NCBI RefSeq assembly: GCF_001447785.1
Contig: NW_015163100.1
Coordinates: 898,534-962,533, forward strand
Length of the DNA: 64,000 nt
Direction of reading: 5' to 3'
Source: Gekko japonicus
Taxonomy: Eukaryota
Within the stretch, counting starts at the first letter, position 1. Every line of letters starts with the position of its first letter. Positions 25,470 to 52,858 of this stretch are shown here, in pieces. The notes below the pieces were generated by a model. It ran no database searches and was not told the origin of the DNA. It worked only from the letters and a program-made list of their open reading frames with translations. The translations under genes and the position numbers were made by a program.

Positions 25470-25620
25470 TGGGCGGGGTGTCCTCCCGCATCCGAATCAA
25501 CAGGAAGCGGGGAGTCCGCTCTAGCAGGGAAGGACTCTCCGGCCTTTCCGCCTCTATGGTTCGGGGGGGGGCAGAGGCGCATGCGCCCTACCCGCTCGAG
25601 AGCGTCGGGACAATAATGGC
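25470..25620 (+). promoter_or_regulatory. AFG3L1 CpG promoter with NRF1 site (GCGCATGCGC, 25577-25586), ETS/GABP-like CAGGAAGCG and a GC box
   Basis: Motifs read directly from the sequence; NRF1 plus GABP is the classic combination for nuclear-encoded mitochondrial genes. Confidence 0.7.
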
Positions 25621-26074
25621 CTTTCGTTTGGCGGCGGCGATTTTGGCCGCGCCTCCTTTGGCCGCCTTGCGCGGAGGCCGCTGCCGGGGAAGCGGGCTGG
25701 CCGGGCTCGCGGAGCTGTCCCCGGTCCAGCAGGTGAGGAGAGGGCCTCCTTTACGACAGTGCCGTAAACCACGGGGGCTCCGTGTCTCCCGTCCCCCCCC
25801 CAGAGTCCTGGCGGTAGGGCGGCGCGCGTCGATGGCGTCATCCGCTCGCGCCGACGCGCCTGAACGCCAGTCCTAGGCCGCGCTCGGCAGACGGGCAGTC
25901 ATCCAGGCCCTCGTGTGCCTTTCCGGAGTCTCGTGTGGCCTCGGGATGCCTCCTTCCCAGCATTCCGTGTTTAGAAGCGAGCTGCCTCGGGCTCTGGAGG
26001 TTCCATTTGGCCAGCAATGACTGGCCTTTCCATTCCCCGCCCTCTCCCTCCATGCATTCCCCTTATCCCTTTCT

Positions 26075-26330
26075 AGCAGCTGCTTGAGACGAGTTTCACC
26101 AGCATAATTAACTGAAGGTTAATTGTGCCGGACGTGAAGAAGGGCCTCCTTTTGGCTGTCCTGAAGTAACTGCCTATCTGTTGCATTGCGAGCCCGGAAT
26201 TCAAGTGTCGTGGGAGGGAAAACTTTTTATAATTTTCCATCGTGTCCTCGCCATTGACTGTCGTTTCCTCTAAACCGACAACCCCTAAAGTCCTCAGCCT
26301 TTCCTCGTAGGATGGAAACTTATCTACTAG
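26075..26330 (-). mobile_element. Degenerate CR1 fragment
   Basis: Minus-strand translation gives SYEERLRTLG...FRTAKRRPFFT. Confidence 0.65.
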
Positions 26331-28043
26331 AGTCAAACCAGCCCACCCCTCTCAGTCCCTAGTCTGTAGTGCGGAGGTAATAATGCCAGTTTACCTTCCA
26401 AGACAGTCCAGTAGATTGCAATGAGATAACGTATGTGACCATCAGATACCATATGAAACACAGATAGTAAGTATTGCTACTCTCATCCCAAGCACTGCTG
26501 CTGCCAGCCACGACTGCAAGCTGCTGGAGGCTCTATTCGTTTAGTCTGGATTAGTAGCTCTTCTAAACAGAATCAGCAGCTGCAAAGAATTAAATGGCCA
26601 ATCATGCACTGCAGGGCCCCTCAGTATTTGTGCAGGTGCATTTACAGGGAGGTGCGCTAGACTCAAAGTGGACCTATTCCCCACTGAGATTAATTTACAA
26701 AATTATGGAAGAAAGAATGGAACTCTGAAAAGGGACTAAGAGCAAACATCCCCAAATGGCCAAAATAGGGACAGTTGGTGGTAAACTGGGATAGCTGGTG
26801 GTAAACAGAGACAGCTGCAGCATGGGCCAAGGAGCACTACACATTAGTATTTGACCCCAAAAATACTTTCAGCCTTCTCCTACCACTACATTGGGTGGTA
26901 ACACTGGGCTACTTTCCAGAGCTGCCATAAGGCAGAGCTCTTCCATCTGCAATATGGGACAGTTTATTTCTGTCCTCAGCAGTTGCAGGAGAATTTTTCT
27001 TACTTGAGAAGTCCTGAATCTGGAAATCATGAATGCTGCCTTCGCTTCTGCTTTTGGAGGGAGATGGTGAGCATCTGTTGCCAAATTGTTGCAGTCATAA
27101 AGTCAGATTTTTGCACTCAAAGCAGCTGTCGGTGTTACTGCTTAACGTTGCAGGAGCCAAGGCATCCAAAACAACTAGACAATCTGGTCTGCAAACCATA
27201 GAACTGTCACTGTGTCCCTGCCGCCGCCTGTGGACGCACTGTACATTTCAACCACTTTCCCCTTCATGTATGTCTAAAGCATCCTCTCATTAAAAAAAAT
27301 CTCGGCACAGAAATAGCAGAGGTGGGGTCTTACTTTCTGGAAATTGTTACAGGGTGCTTGGAAAGTATGAGTCACACCAAGAAATCTGTTTGCTTGTTCA
27401 CCTCAAGTTATCTTCTACTCAGAGCAGCGAGCATTTTCAAAGTCCTTTTGTTCCACCACCACCCCTTAATCTATGACACCACCCCTCCTAATTCCACCAG
27501 TTTTATACATGATTTTGCTTGAGTCTGCAGCTTTAAAATTGGGGGATGAGGGGGATATCTCCTCCCCCCCATAAATTGCTGGGCTTTTAGCTGCAGCCTA
27601 GCAACATCAGTGGATGCATATGTCTGTGGTAAATAGTGCAGAGCTTTTAACCCCCCCCCCCCCCAAGGTTTATGTTCCTTTTGACACTTGGATAACTTTG
27701 TTTTTTTAGCCCTCAGAAAACTTGTCTAACATGGTTCTGGATGACAACAGGCTTGTCTTCTTTATCAATCACTTTTCTTACCCTGTAAACTTTACTCTTG
27801 GGCTTGCATACATACTGAACCTCTGATAGAATTTCCATTTTATGGATCGCTGAAAAAGAATGACTTCCTTGTGGCCACAACCCTGAGCCAATGACAGGGT
27901 GGAATTTGAACTCAGACCCCAAGGTCCATGGCATGCACTCTAGCTGGCAGGCCATCTTTGTATTCATCTGCTGATGTGCCAATTCTTCTGCGGCAGCAAC
28001 ATGTGCACAACCTTCTGAGTGCATAGCCCAAAGCCCTTTAGAT

Positions 28044-28484
28044 CAGGGGTGTTGAACTCATTTGTTATGAGGGCCAGATCTGACATAAATGAGACCTTGT
28101 TGGGCCGAGCCATGTGTGTCTTAAAATGTAATGCGAGGTAGTGGAGATATAAACTTTATAAAGGACACAAACACAAAGGTTTTTTTTACTTAAAATAAAA
28201 ACATGTTTAAGACACTTAAAACACTTAAAAAAATACTCTTCAAATATTTTGTTTATTTAACGGTGTCTGATAACTGACACCTCTTGCTCTGAATTATTGC
28301 ATCAAAATGTCTGTGCTGTTGCAATCTTGAGTATGCTGTTCAGGTGTGTATCTGTAAGCTGCAAACCTACAATGACGCAGCAGAACTGGAGGAAGCAGCA
28401 GAAGACAGCCAGTTCCACTGTGGGCCAGATAGAAGCCCTCCAGGAGCCTGATGTGGCCCCGAGGCCACATGTTTGACACCCCTG
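28044..28484. mobile_element. hAT-Charlie-type non-autonomous transposon
   Basis: TIRs CAGGGGTGTTGAAC / GTTTGACACCCCTG; perfect 8-bp TSD CTTTAGAT. Confidence 0.9.
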
Positions 28485-28594
28485 CTTTAGATGATTGGGC
28501 TGCTTATTTGTGCCTCTAACCTTGCTCTTGATTGTGGGAGAAAGGGGGTGGGTTCATTGCTAACACTGTGGAAACCTTTGTGCTTGTTCTAGTG

Positions 28595-28867
28595 AGATCC
28601 AGTTTGGTGTAGTGGTTAGGAGCGTGGACTCTAAACTGGGAGAACCGGGTTTGATTCCCCACTCCTCCACATGCAGCTGCTCGTGTGAGCTTGGGTCAGT
28701 CATAAGTTCTTTCAGAGCTATACTCTCAAGGGCAGCTCTCAGATCTCTCTCAGCCCCACCTACCTCACAGGGTGTCTGTTGTGGGGAGGGGAAGGGAAAG
28801 GAGTTTCTAAGCTGTTCTGAGACTCCTTTGGGTAGTGAAGATGAATCCAATCTCTTCTCTCTTCTCT
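28595..28867 (+). mobile_element. SINE inserted at the AFG3L1 exon-2 acceptor
   Basis: Family head and (TCT)n tail; TSD TCTAGTG at 28588-28594 and 28865-28871. Confidence 0.85.
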
Positions 28868-29639
28868 AGTGGCTTCAGAGGGTTCATCCAGGCTGTATTG
28901 CATCCTTCCATGATTGGCTGAGCTCCAAACCTCCCAAAGGTATGTGACTCCAGCATCAGCTCTGGCCTCTTGCTCTTGATTGTCACAACTCTGGTGAAGA
29001 GATCGATGTTGTGGGGTTGTTGCATATCAGAGCACAAGAGTTGCATTTAGAAGGGCCCAGCTGTCTGAAAGGCTCACAGATAGCCAGGTTTGGTTGAAGC
29101 TACAACTTTAGAGGCAGACAGAACCAGGCATGGTTGTGTGATGAATTCTCCTGGACAGTCTTACTTGCTACTCTTCTGTCTCATGATATTGAGTGGGGGG
29201 GGGGCAGTTTCTTTTTATTGGGGCAGGAGGCGGCTCTGGAACTGACCCATTCAAACCCTGGGTAGACAAGGAAGGAGCCTTCATTTTGGCACCAGAATAG
29301 GTGAAGGCTGGAGATACCCAGCTCTGTGCCACTAAACCCCCCGGTGGGGGAGGTGTTAGCCGGTGAACGGAATGTCCAGCTCGTAAGATCGGAAGCCTAG
29401 AAAGATCTCTTCGGCATCAAGAAGCCTGTAATGGGCCGTGCTGGCCAGGCGGTGGCAGTGCGGCGTTGAGACTCGAAGCAGACCTGGAGAAAGCTGACGT
29501 CATCAAGCCATGCCGAGTGGGAAAATGCTGTCTGGAACATGTCTAGTCTACAGCTGAACAAAATCCCCGTCGGCTGCGAACGTGTGCGATTTAAAGATTT
29601 ATATATGTTGTCCTCCCTTACCCCCATGAATCAAAAAAA

Positions 29640-29689: not shown

Positions 29690-29767
29690 TGACAAATGGC
29701 CTAAATGAGCCTCATTCCCTCTTTGCCACCAGGGAGAGTTCCCCTGGGACAATAGGGACTTCCGGTA

Positions 29768-29867
29768 CCTGGCTGTCATGGCGGCTGGGGTCGCCCCGGG
29801 CTTTCTGTACTTTGCCTCCTGGCTGTCATGGCGGCTGGTGTCGCCTCGGGCTTCCTGTACTTCGCCT
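29768..29867 (+). repeat. 50-bp x2 tandem duplication inside AFG3L1 exon 5
   Basis: 29768-29817 versus 29818-29867, with 4 substitutions. Confidence 0.95.
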
Positions 29868-31287
29868 GGCGAGATCCTGGCCGAGAGATCAACTGGAAGC
29901 ACTTTGTGCATTACTACCTGGCCAGAGGAGTGGTGAGGCCCTGAGCGAAGTGCTCTTTATTATCTGTGGGCTCTGCTTTCCCTTCTGCTCTGCAGCAAGT
30001 ACCAGAAGCCCTGGGGCTTGCCGTGGCCCCCTGCCGCCAGAGGGGCAAGGAGAGAGGAGGCAGGTTCTGTTCCTGCCTTTGCCTGGGAGCGCTTCATGGG
30101 CCTGCCATACTCTTCTGTACACAAGCGAATCTTCACACACACACCCTTTCCTCTCTCTCTCGGTCTGAAGGTGGAACGACTGGAAGTGGTGAACAAGCAG
30201 TTTGTGCGGGTGTTCCCTGTCCCCGGAGCTGGCTTAGAGGTAAGGGAGAGCTGAGCTTGAGAAGGAAAGGCACCGCCCCAGAGGGAGTCTTCCTCGAGGC
30301 ACAGTCGTCTGGGTCCAGGGGCCTCTCCAGAACCTTGAGCTCTGGTGTGCAGCTGCACCAAGCAATGGTCCAGCACGTGTGTCGGGTCCAAGGAGAGGAT
30401 GGAGCCTGAGCTTCCCTGTGGGACGTTGTTTTCCTTTCTAGTGCAGCTGCTCCCCTGGTCATTAGGCAGGTAGTTGCGATACGAGGCCTTGCACCTGCCA
30501 GGCAGCCTTGCTCAGGCTACCTTGCATAGCCCCCTGAGGGCCCCTCACTGTCTTCCTGGGCAAGTGGGGGGGGCGTGTGGACTGCAGAGGCAGAGCCCAT
30601 CAGTCCGTACCTGTTGCTGCTTGCTGCAGAAGTATGTCTGGTTCAACATCGGCAGCGTGGATACATTTGAGCGGAACTTGGAGATGGCTCAGCTGGAGCT
30701 GGGGATCGACAGCAGCCACTGGGTCCCTGTGGTCTACAGCACCGAAAGCGATGGGTGAGTGCCAGCCCAGCTTGAGGGGCGGCCCCGCTGCACGGTCCCC
30801 CCATGCCCCCCCCGCAGCTCATGCACCTGTCTGATCTCCTCACCTTGCAGCTCCTTCTTCCTGAACATGGTCCCCACCCTGCTGCTGGTGGGATTTCTGC
30901 TGCTCACGCTTAGACGCGGGCCGTTGGGCAGTGGGCGTGGTGGGCGAGGGGGAGGGATCTTCAGTGTCGCTGAGACCACGGCCAAGATCCTGAAGGACAA
31001 CGTTGACGTGAGGTTCAAAGACGTGGCTGGCTGCGAAGAGGCCAAGCTGGAGATCATGGAGTTTGTCAACTTCCTGAAGAACCCCAAGCAGTACCAAGAT
31101 CTTGGGGCCAAGATCCCAAAGGTACACGCTTCTCCTCCGGTGTCTGTGATCTGTAGCCAAAGCCCAGTTCAGGCAGAGAGGCAGAAGCCTGGAGAGTGAG
31201 CCGGTNNNNNNNNNNNNNNNNNNNNNNNNNNNNNNNNNNNNNNNNNNNNNNNNNNNNNNNNNNNTGGAAGCTGGAACTTTTGACCCC

Positions 31288-33669: not shown

Positions 33670-35560
33670 CTTCCATGGGTAACCAGAGAGTTTCCCGTCT
33701 GGACAGTTCTTTTGCTGCAGGAGATAAGGGGGCTTGTTTTAGCAGAATTTTTTTTAAAAAAAGGTTTTACTGTAATGATCTCTCAGCAAAGCAGATATTC
33801 TGAATTTTTCTGGGAAATGCAGATATGAAGGCAGATACGTTAAAGGCACCCACGTGAGCACAGATGTTTGGTTCGTCACTGGGCCTTCTGATCTCCCTTT
33901 GCTTTGTGTGCAGGGTTCAACAGCAGCACAAACGTGGTGGTGCTTGCAGGCACCAACCGCCCTGATGTCCTAGACCCGGCGTTGATGAGACCAGGACGCT
34001 TTGACCGGCAGATTTATATCGGTAATGACAGCCATGCCTGGTGCTGAAAAGCTCTGGCCCCGGCATTGCCCCTCTTCATTCCCAATGCACAGTGGTCAAG
34101 GAGGAGCCTCTTCCATTGCCCACTGGCTCCTTGTGGAAGGCTGGCAGTGCCAGGGGGGGCCAGAGCTGAGCTTCGGCATCCTCAGCCAGTCTTCCATGGG
34201 TAACCAGAGAGATTCCCGTCTGGACAGTTCTTTTTGCTGCTGGGCTTGTTTTAGCAGAATTTTTTTTTTAAAAAAAATAAGGTTTCACTGTAATGACCTC
34301 TCAGAAGGGCTGAACCAGCCAAGCAGATATTCTGAATTTCTCTGGGAAATGCAGATGTGAAGGCAGATACATTAAAGGCCCCCACATGAGCACAGATGTT
34401 TGGTTCGTCACTGGCCCTTCTGATCTCGCTTTACTTTGTGTGCAGGCTTCAACAGCAGCACAAACGTGGTGGTGCTTGCAGGCACCAACCGCCCTGATGT
34501 CCTAGACCCGGCGTTGATGAGACCAGGACGCTTTGACCGGCAGATTTATATCGGTAATGACAGCCATGCCTGGTGCTGAAAAGCTCTGGCCCCGGCATTG
34601 CCCCTCTTCATTCCCAATGCACAGTGGTCAAGGAGGAGCCTCTTCCATTGCCCACTGGCTCCTTGTGGAAGGCTGGCAGTGCCAGGGGGGGCCAGAGCTG
34701 AGCTTCGGCATCCTCAGCCAGGCTCCTGATAAACAGATCCGGAGGAAAGAGGCTTATGGGTGGCGCTGAGCCGTGGCAGCTAAACAGATCCTCAGTGTTC
34801 AGAGGCAGCATAACTCTTGGGTGCCCCGTGCAGGGGAGCAAGTGAGCTGTTGGTTGCAGGTCCTGTTTAGAGGTGCCAGGCTGGATGAGACCAGGGCTCC
34901 ATCTGTTCCAGCATCCTATCCTACACAGTAGTCAAGGACCCAAGGCATAGAGTCCGATGGTACCTCCTAGCACTGGTGTTCAGAGGTTCACTACCTTTGG
35001 GTATGGAGGTTCACTTCAGTCAGTCACTGTGTCTTTGTTGTTGTTCAGTCGCACAGTGCTTTGACCGGCAGATTTATATCGGTAATGACAGAGCCACGCC
35101 TGGTGCTGAAAATGTCTGGCCCCGGCATTGCCCCTCTTCGTTCCCAATGCACAGTGGTCAAGGGGGAGCCTCTTCCATTGCCCGCTGGCTCCTTGTGGAA
35201 GGCCGGTAGTGCCAGTGGGGACCAGAGCTGAGCTTCGGCATCCTCAGCCAGGCTCCTGATAAACAGATCCGGAGGAAAGAGGCTTATGGGTGGCGCTGAG
35301 CCGTGGCAGCTAAACAGATCCTCAGTGTTCAGAGGCAGCATAACTCTTGGGTGCCCCGTGCAGGGGAGCAAGTGAGCTGTTGGTTGCAGGTCCTGTTTAG
35401 AGGTGCCAGGCTGGATGAGACCAGGGGTCCATCTGTTCCAGCATCCTATCCTACACAGTAGTCAAGGACCCAAGGCATAGAGTCCGATGGTACCTCCTAG
35501 CACTGGTATTCAGAGGTTCACTGCCTTTGGGTATGGAGGGTCACTTCAATCACTGTGTCT
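33670..35560 (+). repeat. Two overlapping ~0.5-kb tandem duplications spanning AFG3L1 exon 11 (33670-34190 matches 34191-34721; 34530-35033 matches 35058-35560)
   Basis: High-identity direct repeats with a few substitutions and indels. Confidence 0.9.
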
Positions 35561-46484: not shown

Positions 46485-49400
46485 TTATTCTTCCTTCGCC
46501 TTCCCCATCGTCTGGAAAGGCTCTTCTTGGCTGGCCTGGAGCTCCGAGTCGCTGAGGTGCTTCTTCTCTCGCCGCTGGTCCGCTTTCGACCTCGTCCAGG
46601 AGGGGGAGCGCAGGTAGCCGGCCCGGGGGATGGGGTGGGGGGATGGGTGGAGACCTGCACAGAGAGAGAGAAGGAGACGGAGATCTGAGCAGGAACGCCT
46701 GAGACACACCTCAGAGTGCCTCTCTGGGCCGGTGCCTAGTTGAAGAGCTCAGCTTGGCACGCAGAAGGCCTCTGGCTCCCTCCCTGGCAGCTCCAGCCGA
46801 AGGACTCAGGCCGCCCGGGACCTTGGAGAGCTGCTGCCAGGTGGAGCGTACCAAGCTATGTAGCTGGGATTGGGGCCCCCGACCTTTTTGAGTCTCCAGG
46901 CACCTTTGGGACTCTGCCACAGCGTGGCGGGCTCAGCCACGAAACGGTTGGCTGAAAATAGCCGCGGCAGGAGGCAGAGGCAGCCATACAGAAGGGCTGC
47001 TGCAGTTTGCCTTCAGCCACACAGCAGAGACGCTTGTGCCGTTGGGGGCAGCTTCAGAATAGGCAACTTTCTAAACAAAAGAAATCTGCAGTCAATTACA
47101 TCTCCAGCGACCTGTCAGAAGCCCTGCTGGGCACGTGTTCCTACCTGGCCCGGCCCACTTTCTAGCAACTCTTGGCGGGTGTCATCCCCGGGGACCTCTG
47201 AGCTACGACATTCTTGCCCCAGTGTCCCTCCAAGAGTGATGTATGTGGGTCTCCTTCCCCGCTGCATCCTTGCAAACAGCCTTACGAGGTTGGCTCCCCC
47301 GACAGCACGTGTCCAAAGTCACCCCGTCAAATGATAGCTGCGCAGGGTTTATGAACTCATCATCTCCCAGACCCTGCTCCAATACTCTAACCACTACCCC
47401 TCCCTGGCTCCCTGGTGGGTCTGGCTTGAGAGAAGGCAGTTTCATGGGCCCAGGGGGAGGGGTCTTGGGGCTCCCGGAAGTTCTGCTCAGTCCCTCAGGA
47501 GACCTGCCCTCCCCACTCCAAAGTGCCAAGCATGAACCCCGCCCTTTCATCAGGGGCCACTATATTAATCTGAGTCCAACCGGGCGCAAGGTCTCCTTCT
47601 CAGAACCCCACCATTTGCCTGTGTGAACTTACTGGCGACGGGAGGAGCCACACCAAGGTAGAGGGTGGGGACCCAAAAGTGGTTTTAGCAATTCCCTGTT
47701 CTTCTCCCCTCTTTGAACACATGGAGTTGCTTTGTCCATCAAAGTCAGTCTTGTCCACTCAGATCGGCAGCAGCTCTCCAGGGTCTCCGGCAGAGAGAGG
47801 TCTTTCACATCAACCTCCTGCCTGGGTCCTTTTTAACTGGGGATGCTGCTAGGGATTGAACCCGGGACCTCCTGCATGCCAAGCAGAGGCTCTTCCACTG
47901 AGCCACGGCCCCTCTTTCCAGCTCTCCAGGGTCTCAGGCGGAGGTCTTTCCCATCCCCTCCTGCCTGGTCCTTTTTACCTGGGGATGCTGCTGGGGATTG
48001 AACCCGGGGCCTTCTGCAAGCCAAGCAGAGGCTCTTCCACTGAGCCACGGCCCCTCTTTCCAGCTCTCCAGGGTCTCAGGCGGAGGTCTTTCCCATCCCC
48101 TCCTGCCTGGTCCTTTTTACCTGGGGATGCTGCTGGGGATTGAACCCGGGGCCTTCTGCAAGCCAAGCAGAGGCTCTTCCACTGAGCCACGGCCCCTCTT
48201 TCCAGCTCTCCAGGGTCTCAGGCGGAGGTCTTTCCCATCCCCTCCTGCCTGGTCCTTTTTACCTGGGGATGCTGCTGGGGATTGAACCCGGGGCCTTCTG
48301 CAAGCCAAGCAGAGGCTCTTCCACTGAGCCACGGCCCCTCTTTCCAGCTCTCCAGGGTCTCAGGCGGAGGTCTTTCCCATCCCCTCCTGCCTGGTCCTTT
48401 TTACCTGGGGATGCTGCTGGGGATTGAACCCGGGGCCTTCTGCAAGCCAAGCAGAGGCTCTTCCACTGAGCCACGGCCCCTCTTTCCAGCTCTCCAGGGT
48501 CTCAGGCGGAGGTCTTTCCCATCCCCTCCTGCCTGGTCCTTTTTACCTGGGGATGCTGCTGGGGATTGAACCCGGGGCCTTCTGCAAGCCAAGCAGAGGC
48601 TCTTCCACTGAGCCACGGCCCCTCTTTCCAGCTCTCCAGGGTCTCAGGCGGAGGTCTTTCCCATCCCCTCCTGCCTGGTCCTTTTTACCTGGGGATGCTG
48701 CTGGGGATTGAACCCGGGGCCTTCTGCAAGCCAAGCAGAGGCTCTTCCACTGAGCCACGGCCCCTCTTTCCAGCTCTCCAGGGTCTCAGGCGGAGGTCTT
48801 TCCCATCCCCTCCTGCCTGGTCCTTTTTACCTGGGGATGCTGCTGGGGATTGAACCCGGGGCCTTCTGCAAGCCAAGCAGAGGCTCTTCCACTGAGCCAC
48901 GGCCCCTCTTTCCAGCTCTCCAGGGTCTCAGGCGGAGGTCTTTCCCATCCCCTCCTGCCTGGTCCTTTTTACCTGGGGATGCTGCTGGGGATTGAACCCG
49001 GGGCCTTCTGCAAGCCAAGCAGAGGCTCTTCCACTGAGCCACGGCCCCTCTTTCCAGCTCTCCAGGGTCTCAGGCGGAGGTCTTTCCCATCCCCTCCTGC
49101 CTGGTCCTTTTTACCTGGGGATGCTGCTGGGGATTGAACCCGGGGCCTTCTGCATGCCAAGCAGAGGCTCTTCCTCCACCACAGCCTCGCCCCTCTTTCC
49201 GTGTGTGTGTGTCCTCCGATGTGACCTGTGCACATACCCAGGGCCCAGCAGGGCTAGCTGCAGCCTGGATCCCCCCCCCCCGCCAAACCCCCACAGCCTG
49301 CTCAGCATGCAAAGACGCTGGCTCATTAATTCCACTCACACTTCCCTACCAGGAAGGCTGATTTGCATTTTCACTCCATCTGGTCCTTGGGATGCAGCTG

Positions 49401-52232: not shown

Positions 52233-52858
52233 TGAAGAAGAGAAGAGATTGGATTCATACCCCATGGCCCTTCAATACCCAAGGGAGTCTCAGAGTGGCT
52301 TGCAAACTCCTTTCCCTTCCCACAACAGGTACCCTGCGACCAGTGTTCCCTCTAAGCTGTGGGGTCTTGTGAGCAAAAATTCTACTTTGTGAGCTACCAG
52401 CATTAAAGTTGTGAGCAAGTGAGTTGGCTACTACAAAAATTAGTTTGCTCTGGAGCCATCCTTCCTGAGCTGAGATAAAAATGTGTGAGCCAGAGGCTAA
52501 AAAACTGTGAGCCCGCTCACATTAACTCAGCTTACAGGGAACACTGCCTGTGAGGTAGGTGGGGCTGAGAGAGCTCTGACAGAAACTGCTCTTTTTTCAA
52601 GGACAGCTGTGCCAGAACTACGGCTGCCCCAAGGTCATCCAGCAGGTGCGACTGGAGGAGTGGGGAATCAAACCTAGCTCTCCCAGATTAGAGTCCGCGC
52701 ACTTAACCAAAACACCAAACTGGCTCTTTCTCAAGAACAGCTCTGCCAGAACTATGGTTTGCCCAAGGTCATCCAGCAGGTGCAAGTGGAGGAGGGGGAA
52801 ATCAAACTTGGCTCTCCCAGACTAGAGTCCGTGCACTTAACCATGACACCAGACTGGC
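52233..52858 (-). mobile_element. SINE with duplicated 5' module and a nested hAT MITE (52341-52546)
   Basis: The MITE interrupts the SINE at CCTG(C/T)GA(C/G); two SINE heads end at about 52725 and 52858. Confidence 0.75.

What the first reader, a model, noticed from the sequence alone, without database searches (positions are those of the whole stretch)
28558..28939. SINE inserted exactly at a 3' splice site, creating a poison-versus-productive acceptor pair
The TSD TCTAGTG (28588-28594 and 28865-28871) duplicates the acceptor AG|TG. The original acceptor (branch point TGCTAAC at 28558-28564, AG at 28591-28592) now leads directly into an in-frame TGA (28593-28595) followed by the SINE. The duplicated AG (28868-28869) uses the SINE's (TCT)n tail as its polypyrimidine tract and gives the correct 70-nt exon WLQRVHPG..SSKPPK. 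One insertion both damages and repairs the splice site, which could act as an NMD switch or be the lesion that started gene loss.
Basis: partly seen in the sequence, partly recalled or inferred. Interest (0 to 1): 0.7.

Follow-up and report, generated by a model that had tools for sequence, protein, structure and literature searches.

The report
Gecko SINE rebuilds a splice acceptor
In the Japanese gecko's AFG3L1 gene, a common short jumping element sits on the splice signal in front of exon 2 and likely copied that signal when it landed; RNA joins the exons correctly at the downstream copy, likely helped by the element's pyrimidine tail, so the insertion looks old and harmless rather than a switch or the start of gene loss.

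Summary
Observation confirmed. The window is Gekko japonicus AFG3L1. A sense-oriented Squam3B-type SINE (28595-28864) lies between two TCTAGTG copies at the exon-2 acceptor; the old branch point, AG and in-frame TGA are where stated. The repair works: RNA contigs from 3 of 4 contig runs laid (three studies) join exon 1 to 28870 and on to exon 3; the fourth retains intron 1. No joint to 28593 was seen, but contigs drop rare forms and raw reads were too shallow. Gene loss is not supported: the 'missing' exons 3, 4 and 10 lie on other contigs of the same assembly, RNA contains exons 3-4 and lacks the 50-nt exon-5 duplication, and a congener has a full-length protein. A relative about 7% diverged carries the same SINE tail, so the insertion is old. 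The TGA is largely the SINE's own head; all 26 upstream AGs would give early stops. Closest known: dog merle SINE in PMEL (antisense, harmful). This scan noted similar tail-supplied acceptors in three other genomes (unchecked). New member of a known kind; modest interest.

The parts
25616..25732 (+). AFG3L1 exon 1 coding part (117 nt, phase 0), donor GT at 25733-25734
   Evidence: 37 of 39 residues identical to Gekko kuhli P0125; its 3' end is the loose end joined to exon 2 in X4, X12, X14
28558..28564 (+). Likely original branch point TGCTAAC (A at 28563, 29 nt before the old AG, no AG between)
   Evidence: sequence; function inferred
28570..28592 (+). Likely original pyrimidine tract and acceptor AG (28591-28592), now orphaned; use would give a 347-nt exon starting with a stop
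   Evidence: 12 of 17 pyrimidines; no RNA joint seen
28588..28594 (+). Left copy of target-site duplication TCTAGTG (last TG overlaps the SINE head)
28593..28595 (+). In-frame TGA, formed by the target TG / SINE head
28595..28864 (+). Squam3B-type SINE (likely sub-subfamily 3B3) in sense orientation; 13 substitutions in 257 columns (5.1%) from the majority of its 29 nearest copies, plus an 8-nt deletion near the 3' end
   Evidence: by-eye match to the Squam3B consensus in supplement file 2 of PMC7983390
28851..28867 (+). 17-nt pure pyrimidine run (SINE tail plus TCT of the duplication), likely the working polypyrimidine tract
   Evidence: tail region also present in organism B DNA contig
28865..28871 (+). 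Right copy of TCTAGTG; AG 28868-28869 is the acceptor used
28870..28939 (+). AFG3L1 exon 2 (70 nt), spliced to exon 1 and exon 3
   Evidence: RNA contigs X4, X12, X14; 20 of 23 residues identical to P0125
29313..29633 (+). Younger repeat in intron 2 with a 20-bp duplication (29313-29332); the assembly mis-joins here and loses exons 3-4
   Evidence: 93.6% to the repeat before exon 3 on G000:C12934; absent in organism B
29768..29867 (+). 50-nt tandem duplication in exon 5 of the assembly, absent from the one RNA contig that spans it
   Evidence: joint 29767-29818 in X3

Best explanation
A Squam3B-type SINE sits in sense orientation on the exon-2 acceptor of gecko AFG3L1, likely inserted by L2-type target-primed reverse transcription that duplicated 5-7 bp including the AG, and transcripts splice exon 1 to the downstream AG, likely because the SINE's pyrimidine tail gives it a better tract than the orphaned upstream AG. 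Inferred steps: the (CTT)n tail primed on the TCT at the end of the host tract and the head annealed on TG; the whole SINE plus the old branch point, tract and AG became part of intron 1; exon definition favours the 70-nt exon over a 347-nt one; the new branch point is a weak match inside the SINE 3' end (candidates A28838, A28844). The mRNA and protein are unchanged, so the insertion was likely near-neutral and became fixed before G. japonicus and organism B split. The upstream AG is a decaying relic; any leak through it would be an early stop and likely degraded, but there is no sign that this is regulated. The gene is functional; its apparent deletions come from the draft assembly.
For: Exon 1 to 28870 to exon 3 joins in X4, X12, X14, three studies, with no contig cover at 28836-28853. 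Same Q|W junction in G. kuhli, Paroedura and Eublepharis proteins; Table 1 of PMC7983390 lists no 3B3 in Eublepharis. New tract 16/17 pyrimidines with a 17-nt run vs 12/17 with a 5-nt run; ties the highest count among the gene's 17 scored acceptors. Organism B DNA contig aligns from 28844, through tail, AG and exon 2; an empty site would match only from 28865. Exon 4 on a 274-bp contig, exon 10 on a 348-bp contig, exon 3 on another scaffold behind the same repeat as in intron 2. X3 contig carries 176 nt between exon 2 and exon 5 (length of exons 3+4) and skips the 50-nt duplication. All exon pieces have no internal stop apart from the duplicated exon 5. ZfL2-1 gives ~5-bp duplications with 5' microhomology (PMC4245944).
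Against: No empty (SINE-free) orthologous site was seen at DNA level, so the pre-insertion state is reconstructed. In X3 the only contig into exon 2 enters from the SINE tail (28811) and exon 1 runs unbroken into intron 1 at depth 18.5 vs 49-59 for spliced exons: intron 1 retention, cause unknown. Raw-read runs X21-X23 were too shallow (mean depth under 1 at exon 1) to give any ratio; 11 of 26 joints were not shown. Contigs drop rare isoforms and NMD would hide a poison form. Squam3 rarely makes duplications (PMC7983390). 4 of the 37 differing letters of the organism B contig are unplaced, so exact tail identity is not shown. Exon-11 triplication was not tested with reads.
Confidence: 0.8

Rival explanations
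1. Imperfect repair: the SINE left intron 1 with a good tract but a poor branch point, so intron 1 is spliced slowly or retained in some tissues or individuals, lowering AFG3L1 output (compatible with the best explanation in part).
For: X3 holds exon 1 plus intron 1 unbroken (depth 18.5) and a SINE-tail-to-exon-2 contig while introns 2 and 6 are near empty; scattered intron-1 reads in X21 and X22; only weak branch-point matches near the new AG.
Against: 3 of 4 RNA-type contig runs show clean splicing; first introns after GC-rich exons are often retained regardless (general knowledge); X3 is a divergent haplotype (39 letters and 22 gap letters in about 2.2 kb) with one unplaced difference in 28811-28940; no SINE-free comparison exists.
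Confidence: 0.1
2. Regulated poison-acceptor (AS-NMD) switch: the old acceptor is still used under some conditions to down-regulate AFG3L1.
For: Old site keeps a near-ideal branch point and an AG with no competing AG for 46 nt; its use gives an immediate stop.
Against: No joint to 28593 among the 15 of 26 joints shown; no contig through the SINE into exon 2 in three runs. The stop needs no selection: it is the SINE head, and all 26 upstream AGs give stops. At about 5% divergence since insertion the old motifs are expected to survive by drift.
Confidence: 0.06
3. The 7-nt repeat is chance plus microhomology: the SINE landed inside the tract without a real duplication, and the upstream AG was never the acceptor.
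For: [quoted passage not shown]
Against: The upstream copy sits in exact register behind a branch point and tract; removing SINE plus one copy gives a normal acceptor followed by exon 2.
Confidence: 0.03
4. The insertion was the first hit in loss of AFG3L1 in this gecko, as in human AFG3L1P.
For: In the assembly exons 3, 4 and 10 are absent from the locus, exon 5 has a frameshifting duplication, exon 11 is repeated; the RefSeq model P0002 is truncated.
Against: Those exons exist elsewhere in the same assembly and in RNA; exons are 84-100% identical to G. kuhli with no stops; SINE shared with organism B.
Confidence: 0.01

Closest known systems
Canine merle allele: SINEC_Cf at the PMEL intron 10/exon 11 boundary (PMC7349775, PMC6091007; passages read)
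   Same: SINE inserted into the acceptor, target-site duplication (15 bp) contains the original acceptor, SINE supplies a pyrimidine tract, two competing acceptors.
   Different: Merle is antisense, its oligo(dT) lies upstream and drives exonisation of 162 bp of SINE, and it is a polymorphic, phenotypic allele. Here the SINE is sense, its own 3' tail abuts the duplicated AG, splicing is normal and the insertion is shared between species.
Alu insertions into NF1 3' splice sites (PMC3219598; passages read)
   Same: Retroposon lands in the AG or pyrimidine tract of an acceptor, in either orientation.
   Different: All four such insertions caused exon skipping; a sense Alu brings a poly(A) tail, not a pyrimidine tract.
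Introner / transposon-derived introns that co-opt an AG from the target-site duplication (PMC11282704; passages read)
   Same: The duplicated AG is used as acceptor, so the element is removed and the mRNA is unchanged.
   Different: Introners are mostly DNA transposons that insert in exons and create a new intron with their own donor; here a retroposon extends an existing intron and uses the host donor.
Squam3B / 3B3 SINE of geckos (PMC7983390; abstract, first quarter of text, section 7, supplement passages)
   Same: tRNA-derived head, L2-related 3' end, (CTT)n tail, about 180,000 3B3 copies in G. japonicus.
   Different: The parts read describe no effect on splicing; duplications are said to be rare, this copy has one.
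Human AFG3L1P unitary pseudogene (PMC2880309; search listing with start of abstract only)
   Same: Same gene.
   Different: The gecko gene is spliced, open and conserved with a congener; apparent lesions are assembly errors.

Membership tests
Squam3B SINE | tRNA-derived head and L2-related 3' end matching the Squam3B consensus | tested here: met
   By-eye comparison with supplement file 2 of PMC7983390; no computed alignment to the published consensus
Squam3B SINE | (CTT)n-type tail | tested here: met
   Pure C/T run 28851-28867; similar tails in neighbour copies
Squam3B3 sub-subfamily | About 271 nt without tail and diagnostic insertion | tested here: inconclusive
   256 nt without tail plus 11 gap columns against neighbours; no 3B3 consensus found in the 5 supplement files searched
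Merle-type SINE-in-acceptor insertion | Target-site duplication contains the acceptor AG | tested here: met
Merle-type SINE-in-acceptor insertion | Antisense orientation with oligo(dT) tract | tested here: not met
   Sense orientation, C/T tail at the 3' end
Merle-type SINE-in-acceptor insertion | SINE exonised through an alternative acceptor | tested here: inconclusive
   Not seen in 3 contig runs; X3 shows retention rather than a spliced SINE exon; rare forms not detectable
Poison exon / AS-NMD switch | Alternative form carries an early stop | tested here: met
   26 of 26 upstream AGs from 28591 to 28839 give a stop before the end of exon 2
Poison exon / AS-NMD switch | Alternative acceptor is actually used | tested here: inconclusive
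   No 28593 joint among 15 of 26 joints shown; raw depth under 1 at exon 1
Poison exon / AS-NMD switch | Regulated, and stabilised by NMD inhibition | not testable with these tools
   needs experiment
Poison exon / AS-NMD switch | Poison site conserved beyond neutral expectation | not tested
   Organism B was laid only on 28836-29360
Unitary pseudogene | Fixed disabling lesions (missing exons, frameshift, stops) | tested here: not met
Introner | Element inserts in an exon and forms a new intron with its own ends | tested here: not met
   Element lies at the end of existing intron 1; donor is the host's 25733

The most novel reading that the evidence does not exclude
(CTT)n-tailed Squam3B SINEs are self-repairing acceptor invaders: tail microhomology steers sense copies to the ends of pyrimidine tracts, the short L2-type duplication copies the AG, and the tail replaces the tract. 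Across gecko and lacertid genomes they would then have swapped the 3' splice signals of tens to hundreds of exons, leaving orphan upstream acceptors and a microsatellite tract whose length could tune splicing like the merle tail, with AFG3L1 intron-1 retention as one readout.
Probability: 0.2. Interest if true: 0.6.

Novelty: new member of a known kind. Interest (0 to 1): 0.3.

Why it matters
It is a clean, RNA-supported case of a retroposon landing on the most dangerous spot of an intron and being tolerated because its tail is itself a splice signal, the harmless mirror of the merle and NF1 insertions. It makes a testable prediction: pyrimidine-tailed SINEs should be under-purged, in sense orientation, right at acceptors. 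It also shows that the G. japonicus draft assembly and its RefSeq model wrongly make AFG3L1 look like a pseudogene, a trap for gene-loss screens because the human gene is a real one.

Tried and rejected
Gene-loss reading: rejected after finding exons 3, 4, 10 elsewhere in G000 and in RNA. Junction ratio from raw reads (X21-X23, 3-12% of each run read): too shallow, no ratio obtainable. No run was listed on record as an RNA holder; this is no evidence either way. 8 of 24 listed runs were laid; the two DNA-type runs of organism A (X1, X2) were not, so presence/absence polymorphism within the species is open. Tail conservation as a sign of selection: no difference listed in 26 nt vs 7.2% in intron 2 gives P about 0.15 and near-end differences are unlisted; not used. 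Empty orthologous site: no relative genome is held and organism B is filled. Divergence date for the two geckos: search listing gave none, no paper opened. Literature searches for a sense SINE tail rescuing an acceptor returned merle, NF1 and introner papers but no such case; these were narrow phrase searches of open-access text only. In one search the ends of exons 11-13 were set one base too long; corrected. In one search one of 29 copies was dropped from the duplication count (N in tail).

Full report
Identity. Exon 8 of the gene around the finding (30852-31120) is 100% identical to 'AFG3-like protein 1 [Gekko japonicus]' (P0002); the own-genome search places the window on G000:C3390 and finds AFG3L2-like and other paralogues elsewhere. 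The gene is AFG3L1, a mitochondrial m-AAA protease subunit.

Observation. All coordinates hold: branch-point-like TGCTAAC 28558-28564, TCTAGTG at 28588-28594 and 28865-28871, AG at 28591 and 28868, exon 1 of 117 coding nt so that TGA 28593 is in frame, and a 70-nt exon 2 followed by GT. With one search rule, 1 of 28 other SINE copies had a duplication of 7 nt or more (4 of 28 of 6 or more) against 1.7% (6.9%) of 812 cross-paired controls, so duplications are rare in this family, as PMC7983390 states, and this one is unlikely by chance. Part of it is microhomology: TG precedes the head in 9 of 17 copies starting AGA, the published Squam3B consensus begins with G, and TCT matches the tail. The duplication is therefore 5-7 bp, the size and junction type reported for the L2 element ZfL2-1 (PMC4245944, abstract and passages). 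The 'poison' TGA is thus mostly the SINE's own head, and it is not special: all 26 AGs from 28591 to 28839 would give a stop before the end of exon 2.

The element. It matches the Squam3B consensus by eye, has a C/T tail, and is 5.1% (13 of 257) from the majority of its 29 nearest copies (these were chosen for likeness to it, so this may understate age). Table 1 of PMC7983390 gives 180,151 Squam3B3 copies with (CTT)n tails in G. japonicus and lists 3B3 in Paroedura but not Eublepharis. Assignment to 3B3 is likely, not tested against a consensus.

Which acceptor is used. In one search, contigs of X4, X12 and X14 (three studies; kinds listed as RNA?, ? and RNA?, but spliced) each align at 28868-28940 with the end of exon 1 as loose end before and the start of exon 3 as loose end behind; none covers 28836-28853. 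Because exon 1 ends in AG, this is the joint 25732/28870. Orthologous proteins of G. kuhli, Paroedura and Eublepharis have the same Q|W junction. The new tract has 16 of 17 pyrimidines (17-nt run) against 12 of 17 (5-nt run) for the old one, and the old site would define a 347-nt exon; these are the likely reasons for the choice (inferred). The new branch point is unknown; only weak matches lie in range. Against a fully clean picture, X3 has one contig running from exon 1 unbroken into intron 1 (depth 18.5) and its exon-2 contig enters from the SINE tail at 28811, which is intron-1 retention, not use of 28593. Raw reads X21-X23 had mean depth under 1 at exon 1; no joint from 25732 was among the 15 of 26 joints shown. 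So use of 28593 was not seen but a low level is not excluded.

Gene loss. In the window exons 3, 4 and 10 are absent, exon 5 has a 50-nt duplication and exon 11 recurs. But exon 4 lies on a 274-bp contig (L004), exon 10 on a 348-bp contig that cuts its last bases (L010), and exon 3 on scaffold C12934 behind a copy of the repeat that interrupts intron 2 here, with the second copy of the 20-bp duplication at 29313-29332 (L007). Organism B lacks that repeat and its contig runs from 29330 into sequence like that found before exon 3. The X3 contig has 176 nt, the length of exons 3+4, between exons 2 and 5 and skips the duplication. Each exon piece is 84-100% identical to the full-length 781-aa G. 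kuhli protein, with canonical ends and no internal stop except from the exon-5 duplication. The exon-11 repeats (about 3% mismatches between copies) were not tested with reads; uncollapsed haplotypes are a guess.

Age. Organism B's DNA contig aligns from 28844 through tail, AG, exon 2 and intron 2 (28 listed substitutions in 391 nt, 7.2%). The old tract matches the new at only about half of those 26 positions, while just 4 differences of that contig are unplaced, so B carries the SINE tail. B's exon-2 changes give the same three residue changes as the G. kuhli protein. The insertion predates that split. No empty site was observed.

Mechanism, shown vs inferred. Shown: anatomy, splicing at 28870, presence in a relative, missing exons elsewhere in the assembly. 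Inferred: priming by tail microhomology, that the upstream site was the ancestral acceptor, that the tail is required, near-neutral fixation.

Comparison. Merle is the closest system: a SINE in the acceptor with a duplication holding the original site (PMC7349775, PMC6091007; passages), but antisense and harmful. Alu insertions in NF1 acceptors cause skipping (PMC3219598; passages). Introners co-opt a duplicated AG (PMC11282704; passages). Searches showed no published sense-tail rescue, but were narrow. This scan's notes report similar cases in a wall lizard (also Squam3B), a ray and an abalone; these are unchecked AI notes and I did not test them, but they suggest the event recurs. Of the PMC7983390 supplements I saw only search hits; figures were not available.

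Verdict. Real feature, working repair, no evidence for a switch, gene loss contradicted. New member of a known kind; interest 0.3, higher only if a genome-wide sense bias of (CTT)n SINEs at acceptors is found.

Noticed in passing
window 29313-29633; L007 (G000:C12934): A repeat with a (GAT)n tail and a 20-bp duplication lies in intron 2 about 60 nt before exon 3; absent in organism B, so younger than the SINE. The assembly mis-joins in it. Family not identified.
   Followed up: partly
window 25733-28073 (run X3): Intron 1 is held unspliced at about a third of the depth of spliced exons in one RNA-type run, whose haplotype differs from the assembly by 39 letters and 22 gap letters in about 2.2 kb.
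   Followed up: partly
window 33676-35560: Exon 11 and flanks occur twice in full and once in part (copies about 3% apart); likely assembly or haplotype duplication, not tested with reads. The RefSeq model P0002 uses exon 11 twice and lacks exon 10.
   Followed up: partly
window 29768-29867: The two 50-nt copies in exon 5 differ at 4 of 50 places, more than expected of alleles; one RNA contig lacks the first copy.
   Followed up: partly
window 47771-49174 and 52583-52858: A 142-nt tandem array (9.8 copies, 98% alike) called as tRNA-Ala by ARAGORN, and a 134-nt two-copy repeat of SINE sequence; SINE-derived satellites are described in this species (PMC10702118, passages).
   Followed up: no
L012 (G000:C3390, about 400 kb from the window) and L003 (G000:C14102): An FtsH-family Walker-B exon that looks like SPG7/paraplegin (name recalled, not from a call) lies on the same scaffold; L003 holds an intronless 212-codon FtsH-family stretch that may be a paraplegin retrocopy.
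   Followed up: partly
P0123, P0124 (Paroedura isoforms): Two Paroedura models put a different N-terminus on the same exon-2 acceptor, hinting at an alternative first exon.
   Followed up: no
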